A model generated the notes under the pieces. That model was given only the letters and a program-made list of their open reading frames with translations, had not been told where the DNA came from and did no database searches. A DNA stretch of 63,737 nt, the filler included, from Cercozoa sp. M6MM (Eukaryota > Protista > Endomyxa: Ascetosporea), in assembly GCA_040357565.1 (NCBI GenBank). It is 7 parts of 7 records of this genome, joined end to end, with 100 filler letters (N's around TTAATTAATTAA, not from the genome) between each part and the next. Parts side by side here need not be neighbours in the genome. Positions count along the whole stretch, not along the records: positions 52,888 to 58,885 come from JBDODJ010000807.1; 6 more parts are not named here. One strand, written 5' to 3'. Each line of letters opens with the position of its first letter. Position 1 is the first letter of the stretch. Both the position numbers and the translations under genes were made by a program. Shown here in pieces: positions 752-62,747 of this stretch.

Positions 752-3542
752 CTACGTATGTATATATACTTACATATATATACTTACATATATATACTTA
801 CATATATATACTTATATATATATACTTACATATATTTACTTATATATATATATATATACTTACATATATATACTTACATATATACACTTACATATATATA
901 CTTACATTTATATACTTACATTTATATATATTTATTTAAATATTTACATATATTCACGTATATATATATAAACCTACGTATATATATATATACTTACATA
1001 TACCCCACACAACACACACGTACATACACGCACATACACATTTAGGCGGGGGCGGGGGGGCGCCGCAGTGGCGTGGACGTGGACGAAGCGGCCGCTGTCG
1101 AGCGAGTCGGACGGCAAGGACGGCGACGAGCCCGAGCAGTTCGACATCAATCGCGTGCTGCGCAAGGAGCTCATCATGGAGACCACTAGGGGCATCGTAC
1201 CTTCCCCTTTACCCCCCCTATGTATATATGGATATATGAGATATGCATATACACACACATACATACACGTACATACAATACAAACACACTTTACCCCCCC
1301 CCCCCCCAGATTCGCGGAATCGAGTCGCTAGCGCGTCGTTCTGAAGCGGAGCATTTGTACCCCTGCTCACCCTTAGTATTATTTAAGGGGGCCTGTCTGT
1401 GTGTTGATTAAGACTGCGTTTTGGACAGACCGGAGACACTGCGTGAAATGAACGATCGCAAGTACCTGTTTTCGGAGGTGTGCCAGTCCGGTGCGTTTCT
1501 CTAGGTTATAGGGAGGGTAGGGTGGGAGGGTAAGAGGGGGGGTAAGAATGCAACGTGCTGCGTAGAGGCGTCGTCGGGCAACTTCCGGAGTTATGCCCCC
1601 GTGGCCTTCTCCTTCATGCGACGTGCCGTGGGAGTGTCGGACGCGGACTTCCTCGTGTCGATCCGAGGTGCCGACTCGGGCATCAACGAGATGCAGGAGA
1701 AGTTCACGGAGGGACGCAGTGGCAGCTTCATGTACTTCACGCTCGACAAGCGGTACATTGTCAAGACTGTCACCAAGCAGGTAGACTCTTTATGCATACA
1801 TATATATAGATATACATTTATATGTATAGATATATAGATATATACACAGATATAACATATATGTCTATATATATATATATATATATTTACCCCCCCCCCC
1901 CCCGCAGGAGCTGCAACTGCTGCTGCAGCTGCTGCCGGCGCTGGTGGCGCATCGTGCCGCCAATGCCGACAGTCTCGTGTACTCCCTTATGTATTTAAAA
2001 GAGAGTGTTCAGGGGTGGCTATACGATTAAGGGTACGGTAGGGCACCCTTCCTGTCGGCTCATTCGATCTCAATGTACCGTACGACGGTACGTTTCGTCG
2101 TCATGAGCTCGGTGTTCTTCTCGCAGGCCTTGCGACAAGCCGTGCCGATGGACGAGACCTACGACCTCAAGGGCAGCTGGGTCGACCGGCATGCCGACCC
2201 GCGTCTGCTTCTCGGCAAGAGGGACATCCCGCCACACCTGCTGCCGCGCAAGGTTTTTCCCCCCCCCCCCCCCCCCCACACAATATAATGTATATATATA
2301 ATATTGTTTGCTGTTTGTTTTACTGTTTATTTTACCGTTTACTGTACTGTTTTTGTATCTTCCAGTTTATACACCACCAATTTACCCCCCCCCCCCTGAG
2401 TTGCGCACACGCAAGGGCACGACGATGAAGGACAACGATCTGCACGTGCCGATGCGACTGGACTGCGAGATGCGCGATAAACTGCTGCGACAGATCCACG
2501 CGGACGCGGAGTTTTTGCGAGACCTCGGCGTCATGGACTACTCGCTACTTCTGGGCGTGTGCTACCGCCGCGAACGACTCGTGCACGATGCAGAACGACT
2601 CCTGCTTCGACGACAGTTCAGTCGGCGACAACGACGCGCCAAAGCACTCCTCGGGGTTATCGACGATCTCGAGGGTACGCACACACTTCCGAGCTCAAGC
2701 TTGCTGGCTTTGTAGTTTTTTGAGGCTTTGAGTTTGTCAGCTCTCTGTTTTCAAGTTTTCAACTTTCCTTTTAGCGATTTTGGCTGAAAGCTATCGGCTG
2801 GAAGAGTCGGTTGAAGCTTGAGCTGGAATGGGAGCGTTTATCTCGATACTGTCACGTTCGAGCTTGCAGTTTTTTCCCTGCTTTCACTGGTTCTGTATGT
2901 GTGGTTTTTGGTCGCTTCCTTTACGATGACACAGTTCAGATCTGGCATTCACTGTGATTTCATTATTCTGCGCGCTCATGCACAGAGTCAGAGGGACCGC
3001 ACGAAGTGTCGACCTTCCAGTTGCACGAGGGTGGCGTGCAAGCAGCTGTGTTGAGTGGACCTGGTGTCTACTACGTCGGCATCATTGACATTTTGCAGAC
3101 CTGGACGTTCAAGAAGAAGTTTGAGCGATTCTTCAAAACTGTGATCCTACGCAAGAGTCGTGATGGTACTTTTTTTGTATTTTGTGCGTTTCTCTGTCGT
3201 CTCTTAAATAACTTTATTTTTTGTTTGGGGCATTTAGGCGTGAGCTGCGTGCCTCCGGAGCCTTACTGTGCCAGGTTTTTGGAGAAGGTTGAGAAGATCG
3301 CGCTGAGCGAGCACTGGGAGGAAAACGACACGCCTGGTGAGGTGCAGCATCTCGAGATTCCCGTTGCTGCCAATGACGACAACGAGAACTCTGCCGTCGG
3401 AAGCAACGCGCTGGCTGGTGCCTCGTCGCCGCAATCGCATGTCTGCATCGAGTTCGAGGACACCTCGTCGTCCGAGCACTCGCAGCACCGCGACGACTCC
3501 GGCTCTGATGCCGACGCTGACCAAGACCAGATACAGTCCTAG
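23..3542 (+). CDS. GPCR-PIPK fusion (7TM receptor fragment + phosphatidylinositol phosphate kinase), 5'-truncated, multi-exon
   Basis: Spliced exons give TM segments ([64 protein letters not shown]), linker [13 protein letters not shown] (1158-1196), then PIPK motifs [77 protein letters not shown]; the GT-AG junctions I checked keep frame. Confidence 0.88.
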
Positions 3543-3988
3543 GCTCACTATCCGTCTGTTTGATTAGCCGAGCTTGATATAGTACTGTACAACTGTACTG
3601 CGATCATGCTTTAAGGCCAACTGTTCAGTTCCGGTCGGGTTCTTCTTCTGTTCTTAATATCCGTTCGTCAGGTGCAGGATTCGTTCGACAGTGATTTCGA
3701 CGTCGAAGGCGGCGACATGTACGACTCTGACGATTTCTTGGTCAACGACGGCGATGGCGACTGATCTTCGGTCGCAACGTTCACTCTAGTAGTTTAAACC
3801 TAATTTAGTACTTTTTTCTCTATTAAGCTGATTTAGATCGGCGATTCAAATCATTAAGCAATTTATTAAAGAAATTTTGGAACTTTCCTAGAACGTATAT
3901 ACTTCTTTTACTTGTACTGCAAAGCAAAGTGACAGTACAGTCAAAGTGCTAGCTAACTAGCTCTACCTGGGTTTCCACGCTGAGGAAC

Positions 3989-5572
3989 ATGTTGTTTGTG
4001 AACGAGAGTTTTGGTGCAACTTTTGGCGCCAGTGTTCTTGAAACCGCCGATGACTCGGGTGCTGTGTCCGACGTCGGAGGCGCTGCCGTTGCCGTTGTTG
4101 GCGGCATGATCGTTGCCGGACTGGGCGGCGCTGCTGTTTGGTGCTTGACTCGAGGACGAAACGTTCAGACAGCGTCTGTCGAATCCGAAAGTGAACCGAT
4201 CGAACTGGAGCTCGAGAAGGAAGCCGTTGCTTCGAAATTCGAAAGCAAAGTGACAGAATATGACGAAGTTGTCGAGTCTGAGAACGAGAACGGACCTGTA
4301 GAAGTCGAGAACAAACTCACTGAAATCGACGAAATCGACGGCGTTCTCGATCGCGTGCTCATGAACAGCAACAAAAACAACAATGAAAACAACAACAACG
4401 ACGCAATCAACAAGGAGGTGCAACAACAGCAGGAGCAGGATGACGCAGACTCGGAAGAGAACGACAACAACCAGAACGACCTTGTCGAAATCGACGACGG
4501 CCTTGACGAAATCGATGACGATCTAGCCGAGTCCGAGACCGAGGAGAACGACCTTGCCGAGTCTGAGATTAAAAAGAACGATCTTGTCGAGTCCGAGACC
4601 TTGGAGAACGAACCTGTCGAGTCCGAGAACGTTGTAGAGTACAAGAACGATTTTGTCGAGTCCGAGACCGAGGAGAGCGACCTTGTCAAAGTCGAGAGTG
4701 AGGAGAACGACCTTGTCAAAGTCCAGAATGAGGAGAACGACCTTGCCGGGTCCGAAACCAAGGAGAACGAACTTGTCGAAGTTCAGAATGAGAACGAACT
4801 GGTCGCAGTTCAGAATGAGAACGAACTGGTCGAAACTGAGACCGAACTTACTGAGACCGAGAGCGAAGTTGTCGAAGGCGAGGACGAGATCCAAGTCAAG
4901 AAGGAGAACGAAATTGCCGACATCAAAGTCGTCCAAGTCAAGAAGGATTTGCTGGAATCCGAAGCGCTCAAAACCAGGAACGAAGCAGTTCGAGAAGGTG
5001 CTCGACGCCGTGCCAAGCGTGTCGGTGCTGCCAAGCGTGCCAGCGCTGCCAAGCGTGTTCTCTCTGCACTCACGAGCAGCCTCGACCTGAACAAACATGG
5101 GCTGTCAGTGTACACCGTGGCGGGTCACAACGGGCACGTGCGCACGGACCTGCCTGGCGAAACGCTGTCGGTCATTGTGTTCCCAACCACTGTCGGTGGT
5201 CGCGGACTTAAAGTGGCACGGCGTGTTCGACGCGACTTGAGTCGTTGCGACCAGTTTTCGCGGGTTCGGAACTTCTTCAAGCGAGGCCGACTCGTCGTGT
5301 CCTGTCGTTTCGAGTGTCAACTCAAGCTGCAGCTCGTTTTCGTCTCGTGCGAAATGGCACGCCGCACCAAGCACAAGCACGCCATCACCGGGCACGTGCT
5401 TGACAAGCTCGACAAGATGTGCTACGGCCGCTTCGGCAGCTCGGCTCGTGCCTATCTGCGCCAGGTAAAGTCGCAGCCGACCGTGAACGGACATCTCGCC
5501 AACAAGGTTCGCCTGCTCACTCGCTTTGGCAGACAGCTCCTTAAGATCGAGTCGAAAACGATGCTGCTTTGA
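3989..5572 (+). CDS. Intronless hypothetical protein, 527 aa: N-terminal TM, acidic repeat region, basic C-terminal domain
   Basis: Uninterrupted ATG ORF; hydrophobic AAVAVVGGMIVAGLGGAAVWCL; ~10-aa repeats (ENDLVESETE-like); Arg/Lys-rich C-terminus; AT-rich upstream region. Confidence 0.75.
   Translation: MLFVNESFGATFGASVLETADDSGAVSDVGGAAVAVVGGMIVAGLGGAAVWCLTRGRNVQTASVESESEPIELELEKEAVASKFESKVTEYDEVVESENENGPVEVENKLTEIDEIDGVLDRVLMNSNKNNNENNNNDAINKEVQQQQEQDDADSEENDNNQNDLVEIDDGLDEIDDDLAESETEENDLAESEIKKNDLVESETLENEPVESENVVEYKNDFVESETEESDLVKVESEENDLVKVQNEENDLAGSETKENELVEVQNENELVAVQNENELVETETELTETESEVVEGEDEIQVKKENEIADIKVVQVKKDLLESEALKTRNEAVREGARRRAKRVGAAKRASAAKRVLSALTSSLDLNKHGLSVYTVAGHNGHVRTDLPGETLSVIVFPTTVGGRGLKVARRVRRDLSRCDQFSRVRNFFKRGRLVVSCRFECQLKLQLVFVSCEMARRTKHKHAITGHVLDKLDKMCYGRFGSSARAYLRQVKSQPTVNGHLANKVRLLTRFGRQLLKIESKTMLL
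4470..4870 (+). repeat. Degenerate ~30-bp coding tandem repeat (GAGAACGACCTTGTCGAGTCCGAGACCGAG-like)
   Basis: Repeated GAGAACGA(C/T/A)CTTG(T/C)CGA units within the 3989-5572 ORF. Confidence 0.8.
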
Positions 5573-20210: not shown

Positions 20211-20348
20211 ATCACACACACGCACACACACACACAGGGTCACGGCTACTTCGAAGACCGACGTCCAGCCGCCAATTGCGATCCCTACGAGGTCCTCCAA
20301 CACCTCCTCTCCAGTGTGTGCTCATGTCTGCGCCTGTGTACACGATAG
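18282..20348 (+). CDS. GLN1: Glutamine synthetase type II, 11 exons
   Basis: Fully spliceable: [113 protein letters not shown]. Confidence 0.96.
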
Positions 20349-20667
20349 CATGTGACAGGTTACCCGCGCCATCGTTCAGATCGCTGTGCTGCAGCAGGAC
20401 CTGTGAGCAGACGAGAGAGCTAGCAAGGCGACCCATCACATATTCCTTGTAGTCGAGTCAACTCAGTCTACTAACGAAGACACTAGTTAATTTCAGGTAC
20501 TTGATTTTGAATCAGTTCCGGCCTGACTTTGTGCCACCCAGACTGGCGCAGGGGTATTACTTAGTTGATTCATTTAAGATCCCAGACTCAACTAAGTCTG
20601 GACGGTGCACCAGCCGAGATTAATTCACGCCCCCCCCCCCCACTACCGCTTCAGGGTCGGTGTCACG

Positions 20668-39742: not shown

Positions 39743-40932
39743 TTAACACAGTCGCACAGCGACGCGCACGATGTAGTCGCCGTGACGACCTGGCTCGCGT
39801 GAAATCGGCATGCCATGACCGGGGAAACGCACCTGGAGACCGCCATGTGGACTGAGTAAATACAAACGGTGAATTGAAGACGAGAGCACATTTCAACCAG
39901 GTGCGTGGTACATCATTGATTGCGGCTTGATCGGCAGGGACAGCGTCTGGCCGCTCGGGTGCGGCACATCAACCTTGAGTCCGGTGTCACGGATCCTGCA
40001 GCACAAAAGGTAAATGTGCATCTGTTTCACCACCGTTAAAACAGAAACATGGCGCATCGTACTTGGTGAGATCAACGACAACGTCGTAGATGAGGTTGTT
40101 GCCGTCCCTGCGCAGACCGTCATCACGCGGCTTTTCCTGTCAGCAAGCCAGAGGAGTGTGTAGTTGACTCGAATATAAATATATATACATAGCTATTGTA
40201 TCTGCAGCGTATGATTTACCTCAATGACAAAGACAACGTCGCCACCCGACTGCTGCTCGTTTTCCTCGCCCTCGCTGTGAAACCGCACCTTGGTACCAGC
40301 CTTCCAACCCGGCTTGACATCAACCGCAAAGTCTTTGGCCTCCTTCTCGTAGGTGCCTACGTGCGCCAACATACTGCACAATACAAATGACACACAGGAA
40401 GAGGGAAGCGCTACCGTTCGGCTGTCGTCTGCGACGGCTGAAACGGCGATTCTTGCGACAGCCCTGGTACAGTTCCTCGAGTCTGCAGAGCACAGGGGCA
40501 TAGATAGTCGCAGAGTTATTTGCACGCATCCTGGAGTGCAAGCAAAGCCTACGTGAGCTTAAGCGGAATGTTAAAGTCGGAGCCCTTGGCAACGCGGCGC
40601 TGGCGACGCATGTTGTGCATGCCATGCATACCGCCCATGCCTGTGTCCCCCCGTGCACACATGATGGCACAACAGTGGATGCTAAAGTGCAAGTACCGCC
40701 CATGCCGCCCATCATGTCAGCGAAAGGATGGCCACCCATGCCACCCATGCCGCCGCCCATGCCTATACCAAAAAAATGCAGGAAGAAACAGTACATATCA
40801 CAAACACACAGCGGCCAAATCCGGTACCTCCACCGCCGAAGAACATGTCGAACAGGTTGAATGCGTCACCCTGAAAGCATTCGTGTACCCGCCAGACAAA
40901 CACAAACACAAACACAAACACAAACACAAACA

Positions 40933-41924: not shown

Positions 41925-44900
41925 TCAGAAGGCGCGACCGAGTGCGGTGGACAGACGCGACGTATCAGCCACGGCGCAGATCTACAGCAATAGCCCTTAT
42001 TGTGGGCCATGCCACGAGGAGCAAATTGTGATTAACCTCGTTGTCGCGCATCATGACGGACTGCACAAAGCCCTTGGGACGGTCGGTTTCGTACACCGTG
42101 GCCTTGTAGCCGCGCTTCTCCAGGAACTTCATCAAGAAAGCGTCTTCATCGATGAGCTCGCGTTCCACCATGACACCGTCCACGTCTGCACCAAAAGACA
42201 AGTGGTAAATCCTCCTCGAAAAATAAGAGGTCAGGAGACAACGCTCCCGTACCAGCGAACTGCACAGCTTCGTTGCGACTCAGAATGCGACCAGCGTCAG
42301 TTGCAGTCTTGAGTGGCTGCAGCACATCAACATGCAGATGAACAAGATAGCTCGGAGCGGGGTACCTCATCAAAAAAGAGCACTCGCGTGAGAACGTTGA
42401 GGATCGTGCCCGGGATGCGCGCTGCACAGAAACCACGTCGTCCCAAGCAGACCGGGGACCAGGTCCAGATGGACAGCACAGGCAGAAAGAAAGGGTTGCT
42501 ACAGCCACCAGGCGAGCCAAGCGCGAGGAAGGGTCGTTCCTTGCCACTGTTGTCCATCTGGGTGGGGAGGGGGTAAGGAGGATAATGAGTGATGATAATG
42601 AGAATATGAGAACCACAGTAACGATAGTCGGAGCCATGCTGCTCAGCGGACGCTTGCTGCCGAAAGTGTCCTTATCTGCCATACATGACCACACATACAC
42701 ATGCATAGTGATACAGCGATACAGTGATCGATCAATGAGACTTGCACATGGTAGATACCGTCGCCCAGAGCTGTGCGACGACGGTAACGACCTCCGGCGG
42801 GACGGTTCAGCAAGAGTCGACCCTCGTTGTCCTTAGCGAGGGCGCTAAAAGCCAGCAGGCAAGGGTGAAAGGGTGGGGCGCAAAGGGAAGGACAAATAGA
42901 GAAGGCACGTGAAGTCGGTGAGCTCGTTGTTCAGCAGCAGTCCGAACTCAGGCACAACGATACCGGCACCCATGTTCTCCTCTACGCAGAAAAATTACAT
43001 CCACCAGTCAGTGATCAGTTAGCAAGTGGCACTCCCCGCAGTCAGTCAACACGTGTGTGTCTCAGTACCTAGAGTGGTAGTGGCCGACACGAGGTTGCCT
43101 TTCTCGTCTGCCACAACGAAGTGCGTCGTGCCACGCTTGCCCTGTCCATCGGGGGGGGGGGGGGCGGTAAAGAGGATCCAGGCTTAGAGAACATGTATAC
43201 CTCCTCGTGCATGACACCATGCGACTGATCGAGACCCGGCGGCACTTGCATGCCGTCCATGGCTGCCGAAAGGGTATAAGCAAAGGGCCAAGGGGCAAAG
43301 GGGAAGGGTAGCTTACCATTGGCAGCACCGGCACCGCCGACATAAGCACGCGCACGCTGCTGCAGGTAGTTCTTGTCCACGAGCTGCGCGACTGGCACAT
43401 CCTCGACGTCCGGGTCGGCCAGGTAGCTGTTGCGGTCGGCAAAGGCCACTGCGCAGCAAACAAGCGTGTCCACAGCAGAGACCCACGAGGCAGCAGGCAG
43501 TAGATACCGTCCTGCGCATCGACAAAGGCCGTCAGGAACTCGCGCGAATTAGAGGCAACAAAACTCGTCGTGTCCAGATTAGACAGCAACTCGGCCACCT
43601 GCGCGATCACAATGGAACCACCTGCACATGTGCAACACCGTCAAACACTTACACATGTGTTGACACGGACATGTAGTCCGAAAGAAGTCAAAAGTGACCA
43701 GATGGCGGTGGCGGCGCGTACACGAAGAACTCGCGCTCGTTGACGCTGAGTGCGACGCGAAGCGGCTCGCGTTCAACAGCCACGTAGTTCGCAAAGTCAT
43801 CCTGTGGAACATTGTCATTGACACTCACCTTCGTTGATACCTCAGCGACACTGAGTGATTAGTACCTCGGTCAGGAGTGAAGCACGGTCGGTCACCTGGT
43901 TGACACCGTCGACAGCGGTGCGCAGTATGGCAGTCGCCACCTCGCCTTTGTAGAACGCGTGCAGCAACTCATCCAGTGCCTGTGAGGTGGCAAGAGGATA
44001 ACACGATGAGGGAATACAGGGGGGGGGGGGGGGGGCCACACCTCCTCGGAGTCACCAAAGAAACGCTCAAGCAGCACGGCATGTCCTTCGTTGCGGAAGA
44101 TCTCGCCAATCTAAACATGTCGGTGTTAGATGGTCCATATGGACACATCACAGTGTTTCTTTACCTCTACCTTTGGCGCATCACCAGCTTCGTTGAGATA
44201 TAGCTCCTTGGCCGCTTCATCGCGACTGTAGACTCTCACATTGGAAACTCCGGGGAGGGGGGGGGGGGTAAGATTACCTCAGTCGCCAAGCGTTCTTGGA
44301 AATGCGATCGTGCAGCATGGGGTACATTGCGAAGCCTAACGTACAGAACCAGTCCGATGAAGACTCGTGACACCACATGAGAGATAGAATGCTACCTTCA
44401 CGGGCATAATTGAGTGCTGGTGCAGCGATCTGCTTCAGCGTCTGGGAAAGAGGGACAGGACATACGAACATAGTACATACGTACAGCATAGATATACCAA
44501 GGTGCCGTACTCTCGGTGCATACGAGCGAACATGGCAATCTGTTTAAGAGGTAGGACATACACACAGGTGCAGAAGCCAGTGTCCAACAGAGGTACCATT
44601 CCAGGCACGCCAACAGCACCACCACCAGTCTTGCGTTCATTGAATGGAATAGCCTGTGAATAGAGACAGGAGTGGGGGGGGGGGGGAGGGAGGGAGGGGC
44701 TAGTAATAACAGACCTTGTTGTGCAGACACTCGCACGGTGTCTCAGTGTTGCACACCTCCGTGGTACCACTGGTGTCGCAGAAGAAGTTACCCTGGGGGG
44801 GGGGGGCGGCGGTTGACAGAAGAAGGACAGGAAGGCAACACAAGGTACATGCAGAGCAGACGGCGCCTCCTCGCGTCCGTCGAAGGACCGAATTCCTGCC

Positions 44901-54364: not shown

Positions 54365-56179
54365 ATGAAACTCGCCCTCCTCGCGGTCGCACTAGCCGCT
54401 GCTGCCGGCGCTGCCGAAGCACGCAGCAAGCATCAATGGACCAAGTCGGTGCTGCGTCGCAAGCTCGCAGGTGGTGCACTCAGCAGTCCGATGTCGATGG
54501 AACTCCTGTCCAAGAAGAGCAAGTCCGGCAAGTCCAGCAAGAGCAAGAGCAAGAGTAAAAGCAAAAGCAAGAGCAAGAGCAAGAGCAAGAGCAAGAGCAG
54601 CAAATCTTCCAAGTCCAAGTCCTCCAAGTCAAGTCGCAGCTCCCGCTCCTCCCGCTCGAGCCACAGCGGCTCTCGCAGCGGCTCTCGCAGTGGCTCTCGC
54701 AGCGGCTCTCGCAGCGACTCTCGATCCCGCAGTCACTCGCGCGACGGCCATCACGGCGGCCATTACGGCGGCCGTCGCAGTTGGCCGCATGTGCGAAAAT
54801 ACCAGGCGCCGGACGGAGTCCAAAAGTCGCGACAGATGGCCTACTTGCTGGGTGATGACTCGGAGAAGGGCTACAAGCACACCGAGCACAGATGGTACAG
54901 CAACTGTACCACACCGACCCCTGTATCTTTGGCTGTCTATGTCTGCCACTGGACCACACTGACAGGAAGGAGCGCGAGAACAAGCACAAGGCCAAGAGAA
55001 ACAAGGGCCACAAGGCGCGCAAGCCAAAGGGTCTTCTGGGCATTCCATTCCGCGCCACTCTGGCAGGTGATGGGCACACCTCGGGCCAGGCCAGGATGCT
55101 CGTCGCTCGTGACCTGCAGAGTCTGCGCTACAAGATCGTGCTGAAGGACATCACGCACAAGCAGTTCGCCGGTCTGAGCATCCTCAAGGGCAGCGGCCAT
55201 GACTTCCACTACGGCGCCGGTAGCGACGGCTCATACAACACAGTGCTCGGCATGTTCAACCCGAATGAGCTGGGCGCTAAAATCACGGAGACTGGCTGTG
55301 GCTACTACCATGATAAAGAAGGCTACTCGGATGGTGCGTTCAGTTTGCCTGTTCAATATATAGTATTCCATGCTTCAACTCAAGACTTTTCCTACCGTCC
55401 AGCAGGTGCCTACGGCTTCGGAGGAAACCATGGCGATGACCAGGGCTACAATGGCATGGAGTACGATGCCTACAACGAGCAGTGGCGGCCGTACTACCAC
55501 GCTCGGCGACACGATGGACACGCCGGTCACGACCACGAGGACTACGACAACTGTCGCATCACTATCCGAGGCACCTGGGACAACCACGGCAAGGCGCCGC
55601 TTGACAAGGTGCTAGACGAGCTGTTCGCATCGCAGCTCTTCCTGAACGTGCGCACCAAGGAGCATCCCAAGGGCGAGCTCTATGGACAGATCCACCCGAT
55701 TCCGCCGCGCGTTCCCAAGAAGTCGCACAAGCCCAAGAAGTCGTACAAACCCAAGAAGCCCAAGAAGAAGTCCAGAAAGTCCAAGGGGCACGGGCAGTAT
55801 GATAGCGACTACTCCAAGCGCAGTGACAACGAGAAGGGCTACATTTCTGCGAGTCGTTCAAAGGTACTGTACCTGCCAGTGTATCGAAACCTACAGCAGA
55901 TTTATCGCTTTACACTCGTTTTTATTCTAGAGCGACAGCGAAAAGGGATACATTTACGCGCCCTCTTCGAAGGTAAATATACTGTTTTGGGCACAGCACC
56001 CAAACGACAGGAAGAACGTGATTCTGTAGAGCAAGTCGTACTCGGAAGAGAAGAACTACTACTCAAAGAAACCGGCAAAGTATTCAAAGCACGCGAATGT
56101 GTACGGCAATGACGGCGTTGGGGTCTCTGTGCGCACGCGTCGCGGACGTCGAGCGACGGACTATGCTGTTGATAAGTGA
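54365..56179 (+). CDS. Secreted Ser/Lys-rich CHRD-domain protein (silaffin/cingulin-like composition), 5 exons
   Basis: Signal peptide MKLALLAVALAAAAGAAEA; S/K tract; CHRD-like SGQARMLVARDLQSLRYKIVL ... LFLNVRTKEHPKGELYGQI; introns approx 54895-54965, 55334-55405, 55864-55930, 55973-56028 restore one frame to TGA at 56177-56179. Confidence 0.8.
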
Positions 56180-56828
56180 ATTCGAATCGACCGACTCTGA
56201 CCACTCTGACAACTGTCGATACTCTCGCGCGTCGATATCTGGAGACTTCTTTTGCACTCTTCGAAAACTCTCCACTCCAGACGTGTCTGTTACTTAATTT
56301 AGGAACTAAACACATGATTCTAATTGTGCCTGTGTTCGCCAGTTCCGTCAGCTACTGGCAGCCGCTGCTATTGAGTGTTGATCAATATACTGCGTCGATA
56401 CACTTTGCATTGCACCTCATAAATATCCCAACTACTACAGCAGATGTCACGGAGGGTGAAGTCTTGATCGACGAAGTAAGTTTATCCTTCAGGTGTTTAT
56501 CACGCGCCCCGATTGGTAATCACAAAGTGAAAACTTTAAAACAAAAACAACCACTTAGTAACGTAACTTTGTCGTCATTTCTTATTACGAATACTATTCG
56601 TAATACTACTGTATTCGTAATCATTTCACAACTGAAACTCTTGCTTCGATGGTGATACGGTAGGAGTCAAACTGGTCAGCGCAGCCTGCGCTAGGTTCAT
56701 CCTCGCGGAGAGCATAACCTAATTCAGTCTGTGACACCGAACTAACTGCGTAGGTATACGCTAGTTGAGCTTCTACGCCGGCCACGTCCGGTCTCGTTCC
56801 GACACGAGGCGTCATAGCGTCGCATCGA

Positions 56829-58865
56829 TCACTTGTCATCAGAAGGCAGCAGTGTCTCGACGGCCCTGCCGATCGACAAGCCTTGCAAGCGCGCCAATCG
56901 CGTCAGCGAGTACCAGACGCGCGGTTTGTCTTGCTCCTGCTCAATTAGGACACGTGAAAGACGCTTGGGCAAGGTAGAGTTTGGCAGAGTCATAAGAGTA
57001 CAACGCTGGCCTGCTCGAGTGCATCAAAGGCGCTCTGCGGGTCCTTGGCGGCACTAGCGTCCAGCACGCCGTCCAACAACTCATGCAGTACCTGCTCGTG
57101 CAGAGAGGCCAGCCAGTCCGGCGAGTTTCGCAGTGCCTGCGCAAACACGCATACATTTATGAATATATATATATGTACATATCTATATACATATATATTT
57201 ATAATATGTGTGTGTGTGCTGTCGGCAGATAGAAGAGAACTCACGGGTCCACGGGTGAATTCGAGGAGCCACAGGTTCGCCTTGGAGTCCATGAGAAAGT
57301 CCACACCAAGCAAGCAGAAATGGCCTGCCAAGAGTCAAGCAAAACGTAAGAGAAAAAGATACAGCACCAAACTGTGCTGACCGAAAGAGATACCGAGAGC
57401 ACTGTCGAGCAGATGCCGTGTGGCCATCACCTGTCCAGAAAGCAACAGTCTCACAACAACAAGTGAGCAGTTTCGTTATCGGATCTTACTGAGTCAGATA
57501 GGATTCTGTTCATGCGCGACATGATCTGACACACGCACACAGATGTGAAGCAAAACACACCAATGTAGGCCAAGCGAGAAAGGCACCTGCTGTTTCGTGG
57601 ACACGCCGCTGTCTTCAACGGCACTGAGGAAGTCATCGAACGACATGCGCACTTCCACGTCGCCGACCGAGTCGGTCTCTAAGTGGCAACACCAATACAG
57701 CAATACACAGCGACAGACACACTCAAGCTGTAAGTACCAGGGTCGTAGTCTGGGTGATCGCGCTGAACGTGAAAGTTCGTAATGTGCGTGCCTCGAGAGC
57801 TCGTTGCCACCTACAGATCCACGATATAGTTGAGGTACATATTATCTACATATGTATAAAGAGTACAGTGGTCGAATGTTTTGGCGGCTTGTATTTCGAC
57901 GCCGACACACGCACGTAGCCGGGTGCGAACCGACCCAACAGCGTAGGTCCTGTCGGTACAGCACCATGCCCCAACACAGAGCAAAAAAACAAACAAACAG
58001 AGAGGCAAGTGCGGTACCCTCTCCCTGCATCGGCGGCAGCCAAGTGAAGTGATTGTGCGCAGGTCGTTCCTGTCGGTTCTCTGGTGAATGACTTTCCGTC
58101 TCCTGTTAATATGCACACATACATATGTACGTATGCACATCTGTATATACGTACGTCCTGAGGCGGGTGAATGATGTTGAGGTAAACGCGAATGTCAAAC
58201 TTGCGGCCATCCAGTAGAAAGGGCTTTCCAAGGTACTTCTGAACGATCACGGTCCGGTGCGTCGGGAAGTTACGGTGCAGCCAGCTGTTGTGACAGACAC
58301 CAGGCGAGGTATCTAGCACACTCATCCCATGTGCCTGTCAGGTGCCTACCGTGCCAGATGTTCGTGTGACTCAAACCTCGCCAACTCGATTCCGTTGCCA
58401 CAGGCACCAGCCACCTGCAAGTACACGTATGTCTCTCTGTTATCTGGTGACACAAGGGTAAAGAAAGACAGAAGGTTACAGGCTTGACAATGCACCACTT
58501 GCCGGCGCGTGCCAGGTGCCTGGCCTTGTAGCTGCACCAGTTGCCTTCCTTGTCGCGACCCACTGTGACACTCTCCGGGTGGAACTTCCACGCCTCGGCA
58601 CCTGAGCAAACACTCTACTCAACGACGCACTGTGAAAGAACGGCACTCAACGTACCCCAGTACTTGAACAGGTTCTGTGCGACGCGCGACTTGTGCACGA
58701 GATGCCGTTGGCCACTCAGGTGCGACATGAACACCACCGGCACTGCTCGGGGCAGTCAAGGCATACGTTGACACTCAATAAACACACACAACATGTCAGT
58801 GGATACCCCTGGCACCGCCTCGCGCATCGAGGTACTCGGAACTGCCGCCTGAATGCGAATGAACC
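56829..58865 (-). CDS. Tubulin-tyrosine-ligase family (TTL/TTLL) ATP-grasp enzyme, 5'-truncated
   Basis: WCIVKP-AGACGNGIEL, IVQKYLGKPFLLDGRKFDIRVY, AHITNF, FCLLGVDFLMD, LWLLEFTRGP. Confidence 0.9.
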
Positions 58866-58985
58866 ATCACATATCACCCCCCCCCNNNNNNNNNNNNNNN
58901 NNNNNNNNNNNNNNNNNNNNNNNNNNNNNTTAATTAATTAANNNNNNNNNNNNNNNNNNNNNNNNNNNNNNNNNNNNNNNNNNNN

Positions 58986-60262: not shown

Positions 60263-60838
60263 NNNNNNNNNNCACACACACACACACACATGCGCACATT
60301 TACAAACTGAGTGGAACCCTTCTACAACTTGAAGAAATGAGCCGTCCGGGTAGGTGTATTTGTCTGCATATATAAACGCTGTTCTTTGTGGCTGGCCACA
60401 AAGCTGTTTGAAAGACAGAGACACCCAAATCGTAGGCGACAGGAACAGCTCGGAATCCTGATGGGAAGTTGGAAGTAGGAAAAGTACGTAGTTCTTAGGT
60501 ACCTCTCGATATAAACTTAGTACCTAAGGCTTCCCGCAGTATAACACTTACCAACTCGACACTTATATCGGCCGTGAGCCACTGCCCAGGCGATCCGACC
60601 CGTATTTCAATATTCTCATTGACTGGAAACAGCGCTTCTCTCTTGAGCGTGCTTGGGATTCCGCACAGTTCACTTTGCACAAACCGCAAATTTACAAGCG
60701 CGAGGATGCCGACAAACACCGTGGAGCACTGCACTCAGCAGAGGCGTGAAACATGATAAACACAAACTGACTTTGAGATTATACCTTGCCAAAGCGATTT
60801 TTGACACTAAAGTCCTGCTCTAGCAAGTGGAGAACCAT
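59035..60838 (-). CDS. Receptor paralog A: OpuAC/ProX-like (PBP type II) extracellular domain, 3'-truncated
   Basis: ALFPVNENIEIRVGSPGQWLTADISVELVSVILREALG, YDINPEVWP, GFLGSS-GLYFPAPLDVAYPELFL, VLAPLWEP; colinear with the plus-strand paralog. Confidence 0.65.
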
Positions 60839-61000
60839 ATACTTGGAGAGTCACGATGCTGTGGTGAACTGAAAGGCTCACGTTCAGGCAAATTCGGGTC
60901 GACAGTAAGTTACGCCAGACGGATCAACATTCCGCGCGGATTGGACAAACTGGGCCTGTCTACGAAGACCCTTTTTGTGCAAATCCCTTAGGCGCACAGC

Positions 61001-62747
61001 TTGATACTAACGTTTTGCGCAAAAAGTCGCCGCTTTTGCCCAATGGACGCTAGGACCTCCTGTGTTCCAGAATCATTGCTTCGGAAAGCCCTCTTCCCTC
61101 TCAACAATCATATCAAGCTACGCATTGGAGGAAATGGCTACTGGCTCTCTCAGCAGATTAGCATCGAGGTCATGACATTGCTGCTAAGAGAGGCGTTGGG
61201 TAAGACACTCAATGGAGATGAGTCTGTCCCCAAAGAGTGTAGACAACTAAAAAACTGAATCTCTACTTAAATTTTACTGTGTGGGAAGGTTTTCGAGCCA
61301 CCAAAGCGCTTCCTGACACAGGTAACTTAATGAATGTATCAGTTTGTATTACAGTATCAACCTCATTTCTCCCTTGCGTTTTGACGCTATGCCTCTTTTC
61401 TATCCCTTCCACACTCTTGATACCCCCTCCACACCCTTGATACGCCATCCCCTTTCTCCGACTCACAGACCGGTTTACTTATCCGAACGGAACCTTTCTT
61501 CAAATCGCAGAAGGGTACAGGGATAGAGCTTAGCACGCGTTGTTTTCTGCAGATTCACGACAGATGGGTGTTTGTAAAACCTAAATATACTGTAGGCGGT
61601 ACGACGTCGACATGGAGGTCTGGCCGCAGGACAGCGTAGCCTACCCCAAAGATATCGTCAGTATAAATAGAGTCGTAAATTCACATGTCTAATACCATTG
61701 CGTAGCCTGGCAAGCTACACGAGTATGTCGTTGAAAAAGGAGCGCTGGACTACAGTCCTTTGGTATTATACCTTTCCTTCCCAAGCTAAGTTTACTTTTC
61801 TTTTTGGCCCCCCCCCCCCCCCGCCATCGTCAGGGTTTTCTTGGAACGACCGCTCTGTATTTCCCAAAGTTTGTTGGAGAAGCTTATCCTGAGCTCCTGC
61901 TAGGTGCTAAATTTATCAGTGAATTTAGACACTGACCGATAGTTCAATGCCCTATTAAATATACGCGCAGAAGCGTACCGCAGCTACGTCTTGCATCGAA
62001 ACCTGTCGGGGTTGTTTGAGCCAGATTCTGCCTACCAAGGCAACTCATCGAGTTTGATGTGTGCGGAGGATGCAGGTTGCTATGAGGGCAAATGGTGCAA
62101 TTCTGTCAGAATCGTGTCAGCGTTTCAGGAAATTGCTTGTGCGTTGTCGCAGGTTCTCTCCTGCATGCGAAATAAGCGAAGAAAGTCGTAATACGACGAA
62201 TCCATGTAAGATTTACAGTTCCGCTCAGCCCTGTCGCATACCAAGACCATGCATTTGAACAGATAGTCATAATTGCATACCGGTGGTGTGCCATGCTATC
62301 TCCTGGGTGGTAAGAGTGATTCCTTTAATTTATAGATAAATTTATTTCAGATACGAACTTTCTTGAGGCAATCTTACGTTTTCGACAGTCCTGGTTCACT
62401 CAACTAGCCTACCGATACAATTTGACGTTTACATTCATTCTCGTGGATGAGTACAAAGACTGGAAAGCAATAGTCTATGACGCAATTCAAAACCGAAAGC
62501 GAATTCTCGCTACACTTTGGGAACCTCAAGAGGCACTTTGTGGATAAGCAGTCTATTCTTATGCCTGCTTTCAAATGCGAGTTGTATGTGCGAAATAGTT
62601 CACGTTTGGAGAAGACTATTTCCAACAAATCGTGTTCCCACCGCACACACCTGCGTGTTCTGCGAGGTGGAACGAGAGACTGACTCCGGATGGTATTACG
62701 CGCTACATTTGCGTGCCACTGTGTGTGCGTATGTGTGTGTGTGTGTG

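What the first reader, a model, noticed from the sequence alone, without database searches (positions are those of the whole stretch)
54365..56179. Secreted protein with the design grammar of diatom silica-forming proteins (silaffins/cingulins), built around a CHRD domain
Seen: signal peptide, short pro-region containing R-R-K-L (RXL, 54458-54466), then an ~80-aa Ser/Lys/Arg tract (SKKSKSGKSSKSKSKS...KSSKSSKSKSSKSSRSSRSS, SGSR repeats) with many KXXK motifs (KSGK, KSSK), Gly/Tyr/His/Asp-rich segments (GHHGGHYGG, YGFGGNHGDDQGY, HDGHAGHDHEDYD), Lys-rich KPKK repeats, and a CHRD-like fold. Established: signal peptide + RXL processing site + Ser-rich KXXK clusters (phosphoserine, polyamine-modified Lys) and Tyr-rich domains characterise silaffins and cingulins. 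Inference: a candidate biomineralisation (silica scale/test) or cyst-wall/adhesive matrix protein in a protist whose genome does not look diatom-like; I do not know of a described silaffin-like CHRD fusion.
Basis: partly seen in the sequence, partly recalled or inferred. Interest (0 to 1): 0.8.

Follow-up and report, generated by a model that had tools for sequence, protein, structure and literature searches.

The report
Glue-like secreted protein of naked amoeba
A shell-less marine amoeba carries a gene for a strongly basic, repetitive protein, predicted to be secreted and built around one CHRD barrel, that resembles diatom silica-forming proteins in composition but more likely serves as a glue-like or coat-forming matrix protein than as a silica maker.

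Summary
The gene is real: five exons (54365-56179), four GT-AG introns, 515 aa. It encodes a signal-like start, RRKL (RXL at 54458-54466), a 78-aa Ser/Lys/Arg tract and Lys- and Tyr-rich blocks. It holds one CHRD domain (Pfam 27.9 bits, cut-off 24.1; SOD-like barrel in the model) split by a 60-aa acidic Tyr/Gly/His loop between its only two cysteines. One conserved His is lost, a second displaced or replaced.

A glutamine synthetase in the window is 354/354 identical to a protein of Cercozoa sp. M6MM (Lemnamoeba sinaloensis, Rhizaria). That amoeba is described as naked, without a test, with adhesive filaments, dense bodies and unexplained tubules; its description mentions no silica or cyst.

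The silaffin 'grammar' is weak evidence. The tract is mostly (SK)n, its KXXK count (6) equals the shuffled mean (6.9), and RxL leaders also occur in non-silicifying oomycetes and Plasmodium.

Best reading (0.55): a secreted block-polyelectrolyte adhesive or coat protein that likely coacervates and binds sulfated glycans. Silica formation about 0.08. No homologue with this architecture was found. Expression, secretion and silicon transporters are untested.

The parts
54365..54421 (+). Predicted signal peptide, aa 1-19 (Lys, then Leu/Ala core, A-E-A before the likely cut)
   Evidence: sequence; hydropathy; no SignalP available, cleavage site inferred from the -3/-1 rule (recalled)
54422..54466 (+). 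Short basic pro-region ending in RRKL (RXL at 54458-54466); likely protease maturation site
   Evidence: processing inferred, chance rate about 11%
54509..54634 (+). Ser/Lys tract, aa 49-90 (23 Ser, 18 Lys), with ten consecutive SK units (aa 58-77) and 5 K[SG][SG]K
54635..54742 (+). Ser/Arg tract, aa 91-126 (19 Ser, 10 Arg; RSS and SGSR repeats)
54743..54894 (+). Gly/His/Tyr patch, RR site and linker with the first EKGY repeat (aa 127-176); end of exon 1
54895..54965 (+). Intron 1 (71 nt, GT..AG)
   Evidence: joins the two open frames; not confirmed by RNA
54967..55029 (+). Lys/Arg/His-rich block, aa 178-198 (11 K+R in 21)
55033..55299 (+). CHRD domain, N-terminal part (aa 200-288; six modelled strands; D256-F-H258 at the family's HxH motif; ends at Cys288)
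   Evidence: profile 8.5 bits, reached by 0 of 1000 shuffles; alignment; model
55300..55551 (+). 60-aa acidic Tyr/Gly/Asp/His loop inserted in the CHRD domain (aa 289-348), interrupted by intron 2 (55334-55405, 72 nt, in frame)
   Evidence: 10 Tyr, 13 Asp+Glu, 7 His, 11 Gly in aa 288-348; no profile match, 327 of 1000 shuffles score as well; pLDDT under 50; intron GC3 0.30
55552..55695 (+). CHRD domain, C-terminal part (aa 349-396; starts at Cys349; NVRT in place of NVHT)
   Evidence: Pfam PF07452; phmmer hits
55696..55788 (+). Lys/Pro block with KPKK repeats, aa 397-427 (15 K+R in 31, no acidic residue)
55789..56179 (+). Ser/Lys/Tyr tail, aa 428-515, with two more EKGY repeats and a terminal Arg cluster; includes intron 3 (55864-55930), exon 4 (55931-55972), intron 4 (55973-56029), exon 5 (56030-56179)

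Best explanation
It is likely a secreted structural glue or coat protein of a naked marine amoeba, predicted to work as a block polyelectrolyte rather than as a silica maker. Shown: the five-exon frame, the block layout (net charge about +63, pI about 10.1; basic Ser/Lys, Ser/Arg and Lys/Pro blocks around one acidic Tyr/Asp/His loop), and one CHRD domain that has lost the His of NVHT and has the first His of HxH displaced or replaced. Inferred steps: (1) the signal peptide takes it into the secretory pathway and a subtilisin-type protease removes the pro-piece at RRKL; (2) serines of the tract are partly phosphorylated (14 of 42 would neutralise it), giving a zwitterionic chain; (3) basic blocks pair with the acidic loop, phosphoserines, divalent cations and sulfated or acidic glycans, so the protein condenses in granules; (4) on release into seawater it sets as an adhesive or coat, with Tyr, His and Lys giving surface contact or cross-links; (5) the CHRD barrel is a non-catalytic scaffold that presents the Tyr loop, probably pinned by a Cys288-Cys349 disulfide, and may bind glycans as chordin's CHRD region does. 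Candidate sites are the adhesive uroidal filaments, the cell coat, or the wall of an undescribed resting stage.
For: Organism: glutamine synthetase 354/354 identical to a protein named Cercozoa sp. M6MM; same contig depth for both genes in run X1 (473.2 vs 473). Described as lacking a test, with filiform adhesive uroidal structures and 1-2 dense bodies (PMC13746701 Taxonomy). Composition and charge blocks. Marine cements combine Gly/Tyr-rich or His-rich basic proteins with phosphoserine proteins in repetitive blocks and condense by coacervation in granules (passages of PMC12817120 and PMC4275877). CHRD precedents are extracellular and non-enzymatic: chordin's four CHRD domains are SOD-like barrels without the metal histidines and bind sulfated glycans (PMC13382577); a CHRD protein is a major part of a bacterial spore coat, and ExsM is cited as shaping the exosporium (PMC5335551). 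Model: one barrel, best match yeast CCS domain 2, Z 10.1, rmsd 3.0, 116 aligned. Cys288 follows strand 83-88 and Cys349 opens strand 174-183 of the model.
Against: No expression, localisation or modification data (no RNA holder listed). No homologue with this architecture, so no conservation test of any motif. The analogy to animal glues is by composition only, the same kind of argument as the silaffin one. No cyst or coat is described for the species. The disulfide was not measured in the model (coordinates not available). The middle strands have pLDDT only 59-67, and the model was guided by 39 bacterial CHRD domains. The gene and the glutamine synthetase lie on different contigs of the window, so the organism assignment is indirect.
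Confidence: 0.55

Rival explanations
1. Precursor of cationic antibacterial or prey-handling peptides: dibasic sites release His/Lys/Arg-rich pieces into food vacuoles or onto the surface, where they would bind and permeabilise or agglutinate bacteria.
For: 11 KR/RR or RxxR sites; several basic blocks of 20-40 aa; the amoeba eats bacteria.
Against: The basic blocks are hydrophilic with no amphipathic pattern (by inspection); dibasic sites are expected in a 21% K+R protein; a folded barrel with a Tyr loop is not needed for this.
Confidence: 0.17
2. Lumenal condensing or building protein that stays inside the cell: it packages polyanions (polyphosphate, sulfated glycans) in the dense bodies, or forms the unexplained packed parallel tubules.
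For: Both structures are described and unidentified in this species; polycation blocks suit polyanion packaging; CHRD proteins occur in lamellar spore structures.
Against: No retention signal or membrane anchor seen; nothing links the gene to these structures; it is not stated that the tubules are in the secretory lumen.
Confidence: 0.13
3. Silaffin/cingulin analogue: phosphorylated and polyamine-modified, it precipitates silica in a deposition vesicle for small scales or a cyst wall of an undescribed stage.
For: Signal + RXL + K[SG][SG]K repeats one residue apart + 4 pentalysine-type windows + Tyr-rich region satisfy published screening rules; 46 Ser and 20 Lys in the best 100-aa window; several rhizarian groups silicify (PMC5100055).
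Against: The species lacks a test and no silica or cyst is mentioned; its named relatives are an organic-shelled Gromia and a naked Filoreta; KXXK in the tract is not above shuffles; no internal RXL-ended repeats as in Sil1p (the other two RxL lie inside the CHRD barrel); RxL leaders are not silica-specific.
Confidence: 0.08
4. The gene model is wrong or the gene is silent: exon 1 and the CHRD exons are separate or not expressed.
For: No RNA evidence; neither protein collection returned the protein itself although a neighbouring-contig protein of this organism is there.
Against: Four canonical introns give one long frame with native codon bias (AAG 60 vs AAA 9, TAC 26 vs TAT 4); the EKGY repeat occurs in exons 1, 3 and 4, tying them together; contigs match without differences across the gene.
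Confidence: 0.07

Closest known systems
Diatom silaffins, cingulins and silaffin-like proteins (Sil1p, tpSil1-3, CinY/CinW)
   Same: Signal peptide, RXL after a short pro-piece, Ser/Lys-rich tract with K[SG][SG]K, pentalysine-type windows, Tyr-rich region (definitions from passages; tests).
   Different: No sequence homology found; tract is (SK)n plus (SR)-type repeats; no RXL-ended peptide repeats; contains a folded CHRD barrel; host has no described silica structure.
Secreted microbial CHRD proteins (PF07452): bacterial multi-CHRD proteins, B. laterosporus spore-coat CHRD, B. cereus ExsM, Fusarium FonCHRD
   Same: One CHRD domain, 25-36% identical over aligned columns to 39 domains from the hits; secreted or surface location.
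   Different: NVHT His replaced by Arg and first HxH His displaced or replaced, whereas 585 and 603 of 673 hit domains keep these motifs; 60-aa insert; flanked by polycationic tracts absent from 133 of 133 hits (best 40-aa S+K share at most 0.30 vs 0.975).
Chordin CHRD region (PDB 9IGM, 9QVV, 9RD6)
   Same: SOD-like barrel without a full metal site; extracellular; chordin binds sulfated glycans through it.
   Different: Single domain, no vWC domains, no BMP pathway context; glycan site residues not mapped here.
Marine cement proteins (tubeworm Pc-1/Pc-3 and Sa-1/2/3, mussel foot proteins, barnacle larval lcp2/lcp3)
   Same: Secreted repetitive blocks rich in Lys/Arg, Gly/Tyr, His and phosphorylatable Ser.
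   Different: No homology tested or expected; here basic and acidic blocks and a folded domain are in one chain; DOPA and phosphoserine untested.

Membership tests
CHRD domain (PF07452) | Profile score above Pfam's gathering cut-off | tested here: met
   27.9 bits vs 24.1 on the exon 2-3 frame, covering profile 82-117 only; exon 3 alone scored 22.2
CHRD domain (PF07452) | Whole domain with SOD-like beta-barrel | tested here: met
   N-part beats 1000 of 1000 shuffles; 42.3 bits over profile 24-122 with the insert skipped; model matches SOD/CCS folds at Z up to 10.1; model was alignment-guided
CHRD domain (microbial consensus) | Conserved HxH and NVHT histidines | tested here: not met
   NVRT (Arg382); HxH reads D256-F-H258 in the HMM alignment or H255 with a one-residue gap in MAFFT
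Cu/Zn superoxide dismutase | Full set of metal-binding histidines | tested here: not met
   Only fold similarity (7-18% identity in the SOD rows); His at the NVHT position absent; mapping of these His to SOD copper ligands is recalled, not tested
Silaffins/cingulins | N-terminal signal peptide | tested here: met
   Hydropathy only; no SignalP run
Silaffins/cingulins | RXL after the signal peptide | tested here: met
   aa 32-34; not specific
Silaffins/cingulins | Repeated K[SG][SG]K and pentalysine clusters | tested here: inconclusive
   Present (5 motifs, 4 windows), but 41% of 5000 shuffles pass the motif rule and 36% hold a pentalysine window
Silaffins/cingulins | Sequence homology to a described member | tested here: inconclusive
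   No Pfam match under E 0.01 for exon 1, no usable Atlas hit; no direct comparison with diatom sequences was run
Silaffins/cingulins | Polyamine-modified Lys and phosphoserine | not testable with these tools
   Needs mass spectrometry
Silaffins/cingulins | Association with biosilica in a silicifying cell | tested here: not met
   By literature only: species described as lacking a test, no silica mentioned; figures not seen; undescribed stages not excluded
Silaffins/cingulins | Silicon transporters (SIT, SIT-L) in the genome | not testable with these tools
   No genome held; supplements searched gave 0 hits but are not gene lists
Marine adhesive/cement proteins (functional class) | Secreted, repetitive, charge-blocked chain rich in Lys, Ser, Tyr, His, Gly | tested here: met
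Marine adhesive/cement proteins (functional class) | Present in adhesive material; coacervates; DOPA or phosphoserine | not testable with these tools
   Needs localisation and biochemistry

The most novel reading that the evidence does not exclude
A naked apofilosan amoeba makes hidden silica structures (in an undescribed cyst, or in its unexplained dense bodies or tubule stacks) with an independently evolved silaffin-like protein that is organised by a repurposed, metal-free CHRD barrel: the first rhizarian silica-matrix protein candidate.
Probability: 0.08. Interest if true: 0.8.

Novelty: new variant of a known kind. Interest (0 to 1): 0.4.

Why it matters
The architecture (silaffin-like polycation tracts plus a CHRD barrel carrying a Cys-flanked acidic Tyr loop) was not found in the protein searches or in the papers searched. 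The host is culturable and has a near-complete genome, so the gene is a concrete first candidate for how naked rhizarian amoebae stick to surfaces such as fish gills, or for two unexplained organelles. It is also a useful negative control: a protein that passes diatom silaffin screens in a cell with no described silica shows that 'signal + RXL + KXXK' does not by itself predict biomineralisation. If it did make silica, it would open rhizarian silicification to molecular study. As it stands it is one orphan gene without functional data.

Tried and rejected
Own genome: none held, so paralogues, SIT/SIT-L, secretory kinases and tyrosinases could not be searched. Homologues of the exon 2-3 frame: 0 of 295 candidates at 164-524 aa and 0 of 942 at 525-2000 aa; both are word-seeded and weak for distant relatives. 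Metagenome scan: 1 locus from 319 pattern matches (L001), a short chance match inside an unrelated prokaryote-type ORF; rejected. Atlas: only CHRD clusters at 0.80 for the domain (lead only); no usable hit for exon 1 or for exon 3 without CHRD clusters. No RNA holder listed. Homodimer prediction of the CHRD region: no answer, score 0.00, alignment not used; neither for nor against. Foldseek gave no match at E 0.001 or better, top rows SOD1; chordin was not among the 50 VIA rows shown. Two half-domains instead of one split domain: rejected, as the halves are complementary and fold as one barrel. Horizontal transfer from bacteria: not claimed; the E-values are inflated by tandem domains (best single-domain score 22.5 bits), single-domain eukaryotic CHRDs would be missed, and no tree was built. 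Bacterial contaminant: rejected (four spliceosomal introns, native GC3, equal depth). Nuclear SR protein: rejected as unlikely (signal-like start, Pfam gives no SR or RRM family). No paralogue in the window. Earlier findings: nothing returned. Supplements of two papers: 0 hits in 4 and 4 files; other supplementary files and all figures were not seen.

Full report
OBSERVATION. The region 54365-56179 holds a five-exon gene with four GT..AG introns (71, 72, 67, 57 nt) that splices to one 515-aa frame. Exon GC3 is 0.62-0.78, like the 0.74 of a glutamine synthetase whose exons are fixed by a public protein; the in-frame intron 2 has GC3 0.30 and is best treated as a true intron. An EKGY repeat occurs in exons 1, 3 and 4. 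Contigs of run X1 match the gene without differences, but X1 may be the source DNA and no RNA run was listed, so splicing is inferred.

ANATOMY. Signal-like aa 1-19; basic pro-piece ending in RRKL (aa 31-34); Ser/Lys tract (49-90) with ten SK units; Ser/Arg tract (91-126); Gly/His/Tyr patch and linker; Lys/Arg block (178-198); CHRD domain (200-396) with an insert (289-348); Lys/Pro block (397-427); Ser/Lys/Tyr tail. Net charge about +63, pI 10.1; no membrane helix and no N-glycan site. The 30-residue charge profile is positive everywhere except aa 241-390, which is neutral to acidic; 8 of 30 Tyr have three or more acidic neighbours.

CHRD DOMAIN. Pfam scores the C-terminal third above cut-off. 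phmmer over 1.84 billion representatives gave 133 hits, none at E 1e-30 or better. All 133 hold CHRD repeats (673 domains). Of 20 scanned with Pfam, 20 carry CHRD and 11 a Por-type secretion tail; of 10 looked up, 2 clusters bear a bacterial name and none a eukaryotic one. A profile of these domains matches the N-terminal part better than 1000 of 1000 shuffles and does not match the insert; with the insert skipped the score is 42.3 bits over profile 24-122 (the profile comes from hits to this query). An AlphaFold2 model guided by 39 of these domains gives one barrel with outer strands at pLDDT 80-95, middle strands at 59-67 and a disordered insert (mean 65, pTM 0.60; it includes the 24 intron-encoded residues). 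Its best structural matches are SOD/CCS barrels (Z 10.1, rmsd 3.0, 116 aligned; the first 14 rows are of this fold). The alignment profile finds three chordin structures at E near 1e-24, which speaks for the family more than for the query. The NVHT His is Arg382 and the first HxH His is Asp256 or shifted by one, against 585 and 603 of 673 hit domains that keep the motifs. The only two cysteines flank the insert at the ends of two modelled strands. I infer a non-catalytic scaffold with a disulfide-pinned loop; neither was measured.

ORGANISM. A glutamine synthetase at 18282-20403 matches, 354 of 354 residues, a protein that NCBI names Cercozoa sp. M6MM. It is on another contig of the window, but both contigs have depth 473 in X1 and share intron size and codon bias. 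PMC13746701 (seen: abstract, term passages, Taxonomy and Discussion sections, a search of 4 supplementary files; figures not seen) names this organism Lemnamoeba sinaloensis (Apofilosa, Rhizaria). It is a marine lobose amoeba from fish gills with complete absence of a test, occasional adhesive uroidal filaments, 1-2 dense bodies and unidentified packed tubules; 'silic', 'cyst', 'theca' and 'CHRD' occur 0 times in its main text. PMC11069148 (passages, supplement search, first of 156 parts of one file) adds that it is amphizoic and gives nothing on silicon.

THE SILAFFIN ARGUMENT. From passages of PMC4557024, PMC5501833, PMC5647440 and PMC9650480, diatom screens use signal + RXL + repeated KXXK (X = S or G) + pentalysine clusters. 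The protein passes. But KXXK in the tract is 6 against 6.9 in shuffles; K[SG][SG]K is 5 against 2.5 (P 0.09); 41% of shuffles pass the repeat rule and 36% hold a pentalysine window. One non-random feature does favour a designed spacing: KK pairs are avoided (1 vs 7.3), which follows from the SK alternation. Against that, passages of PMC1464399 show RxL(R) leaders after the signal in hundreds of oomycete proteins and in Plasmodium, and the chance rate here is about 11%. Silicon transport in Rhizaria is reported for siliceous groups and foraminifera; Gromia and Filoreta are not mentioned (PMC5100055 passages). I could not search this genome for transporters.

MECHANISM. Most likely (0.55) the protein is secreted, matured at RRKL, partly phosphorylated, condensed with polyanions in granules and released as an adhesive or coat. 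Precedent for the chemistry: tubeworm and mussel cements (passages of PMC12817120 and PMC4275877). Precedent for the domain: glycan binding by chordin's CHRD region (PMC13382577, abstract and passages), a spore-coat CHRD protein and ExsM (PMC5335551 passages), and a secreted fungal CHRD protein (PMC12825985 passages). All steps after the sequence anatomy are inferred. Physically this 'works like' a silaffin (a phosphorylatable polycation that self-assembles), but it is not filed as one, because association with biosilica is not met on the present description. Rivals: cationic antibacterial precursor (0.17), internal granule or tubule protein (0.13), silica matrix of a hidden stage (0.08), wrong or silent gene model (0.07).

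NOVELTY. No protein with this architecture came from three sequence searches, one metagenome scan or three Atlas look-ups; 0 of 133 CHRD hits carry a comparable Ser/Lys tract. Paper searches for CHRD with protist, adhesive or biomineral terms (40 of 46 titles listed) and for silaffin with rhizarian terms (25 rows each) showed no such fusion at listing level; subscription papers are not covered. PMC6313938 was opened but its single CHRD passage was not shown and is not used. It is a new variant of two known kinds: secreted polyelectrolyte matrix proteins and secreted microbial CHRD proteins.

VERDICT. Observation confirmed; silica interpretation disfavoured by the organism's described biology and by shuffle controls; adhesive or coat role preferred but unproven. 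Interest 0.4.

Noticed in passing
window 7532, 9291, 36232, 39573, 52788, 58886: The window is several contigs joined by N-TTAATTAATTAA-N linkers; the gene's own contig is 52888-58885, so wider gene order here is artificial.
   Followed up: yes
window 56990-58885 (-): Convergent neighbour on the same contig: a tubulin-tyrosine-ligase family gene (PF03133, E 2.7e-9), cut by the contig end; no evident link to the finding.
   Followed up: partly
window 56440-56610: A short dispersed repeat just downstream of the gene: summed contig depth up to about 16,000 per bin against 473 around it, with many diverged copies and a small internal palindrome at 56583-56605; possibly a small mobile element.
   Followed up: no
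window 20247-20330 (+): The public glutamine synthetase model P0142 skips this stretch, which matches the conserved C-terminal part of 3 of 3 other glutamine synthetases tested, and ends in another exon (20362-20403) instead; probably a mis-modelled 3' end.
   Followed up: partly
window 60498-60734 (-) and 60992-61255 (+): Two short frames on opposite strands whose translations look alike by eye, with no Pfam match and no DNA similarity by blastn; perhaps exons of a divergent paralogue pair or element remains.
   Followed up: partly
window 3953-5572 (+): 539-codon open frame with a hydrophobic stretch followed by long acidic Glu/Asn/Val repeats; no Pfam match.
   Followed up: no
window 1505-3539 (+), 40196-40558 (-), 42600-44300 (-): Housekeeping genes on other contigs: PIP5K and a DnaJ (Pfam), and a gamma-glutamyltransferase-like gene (by eye, recalled motif, no call).
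   Followed up: no
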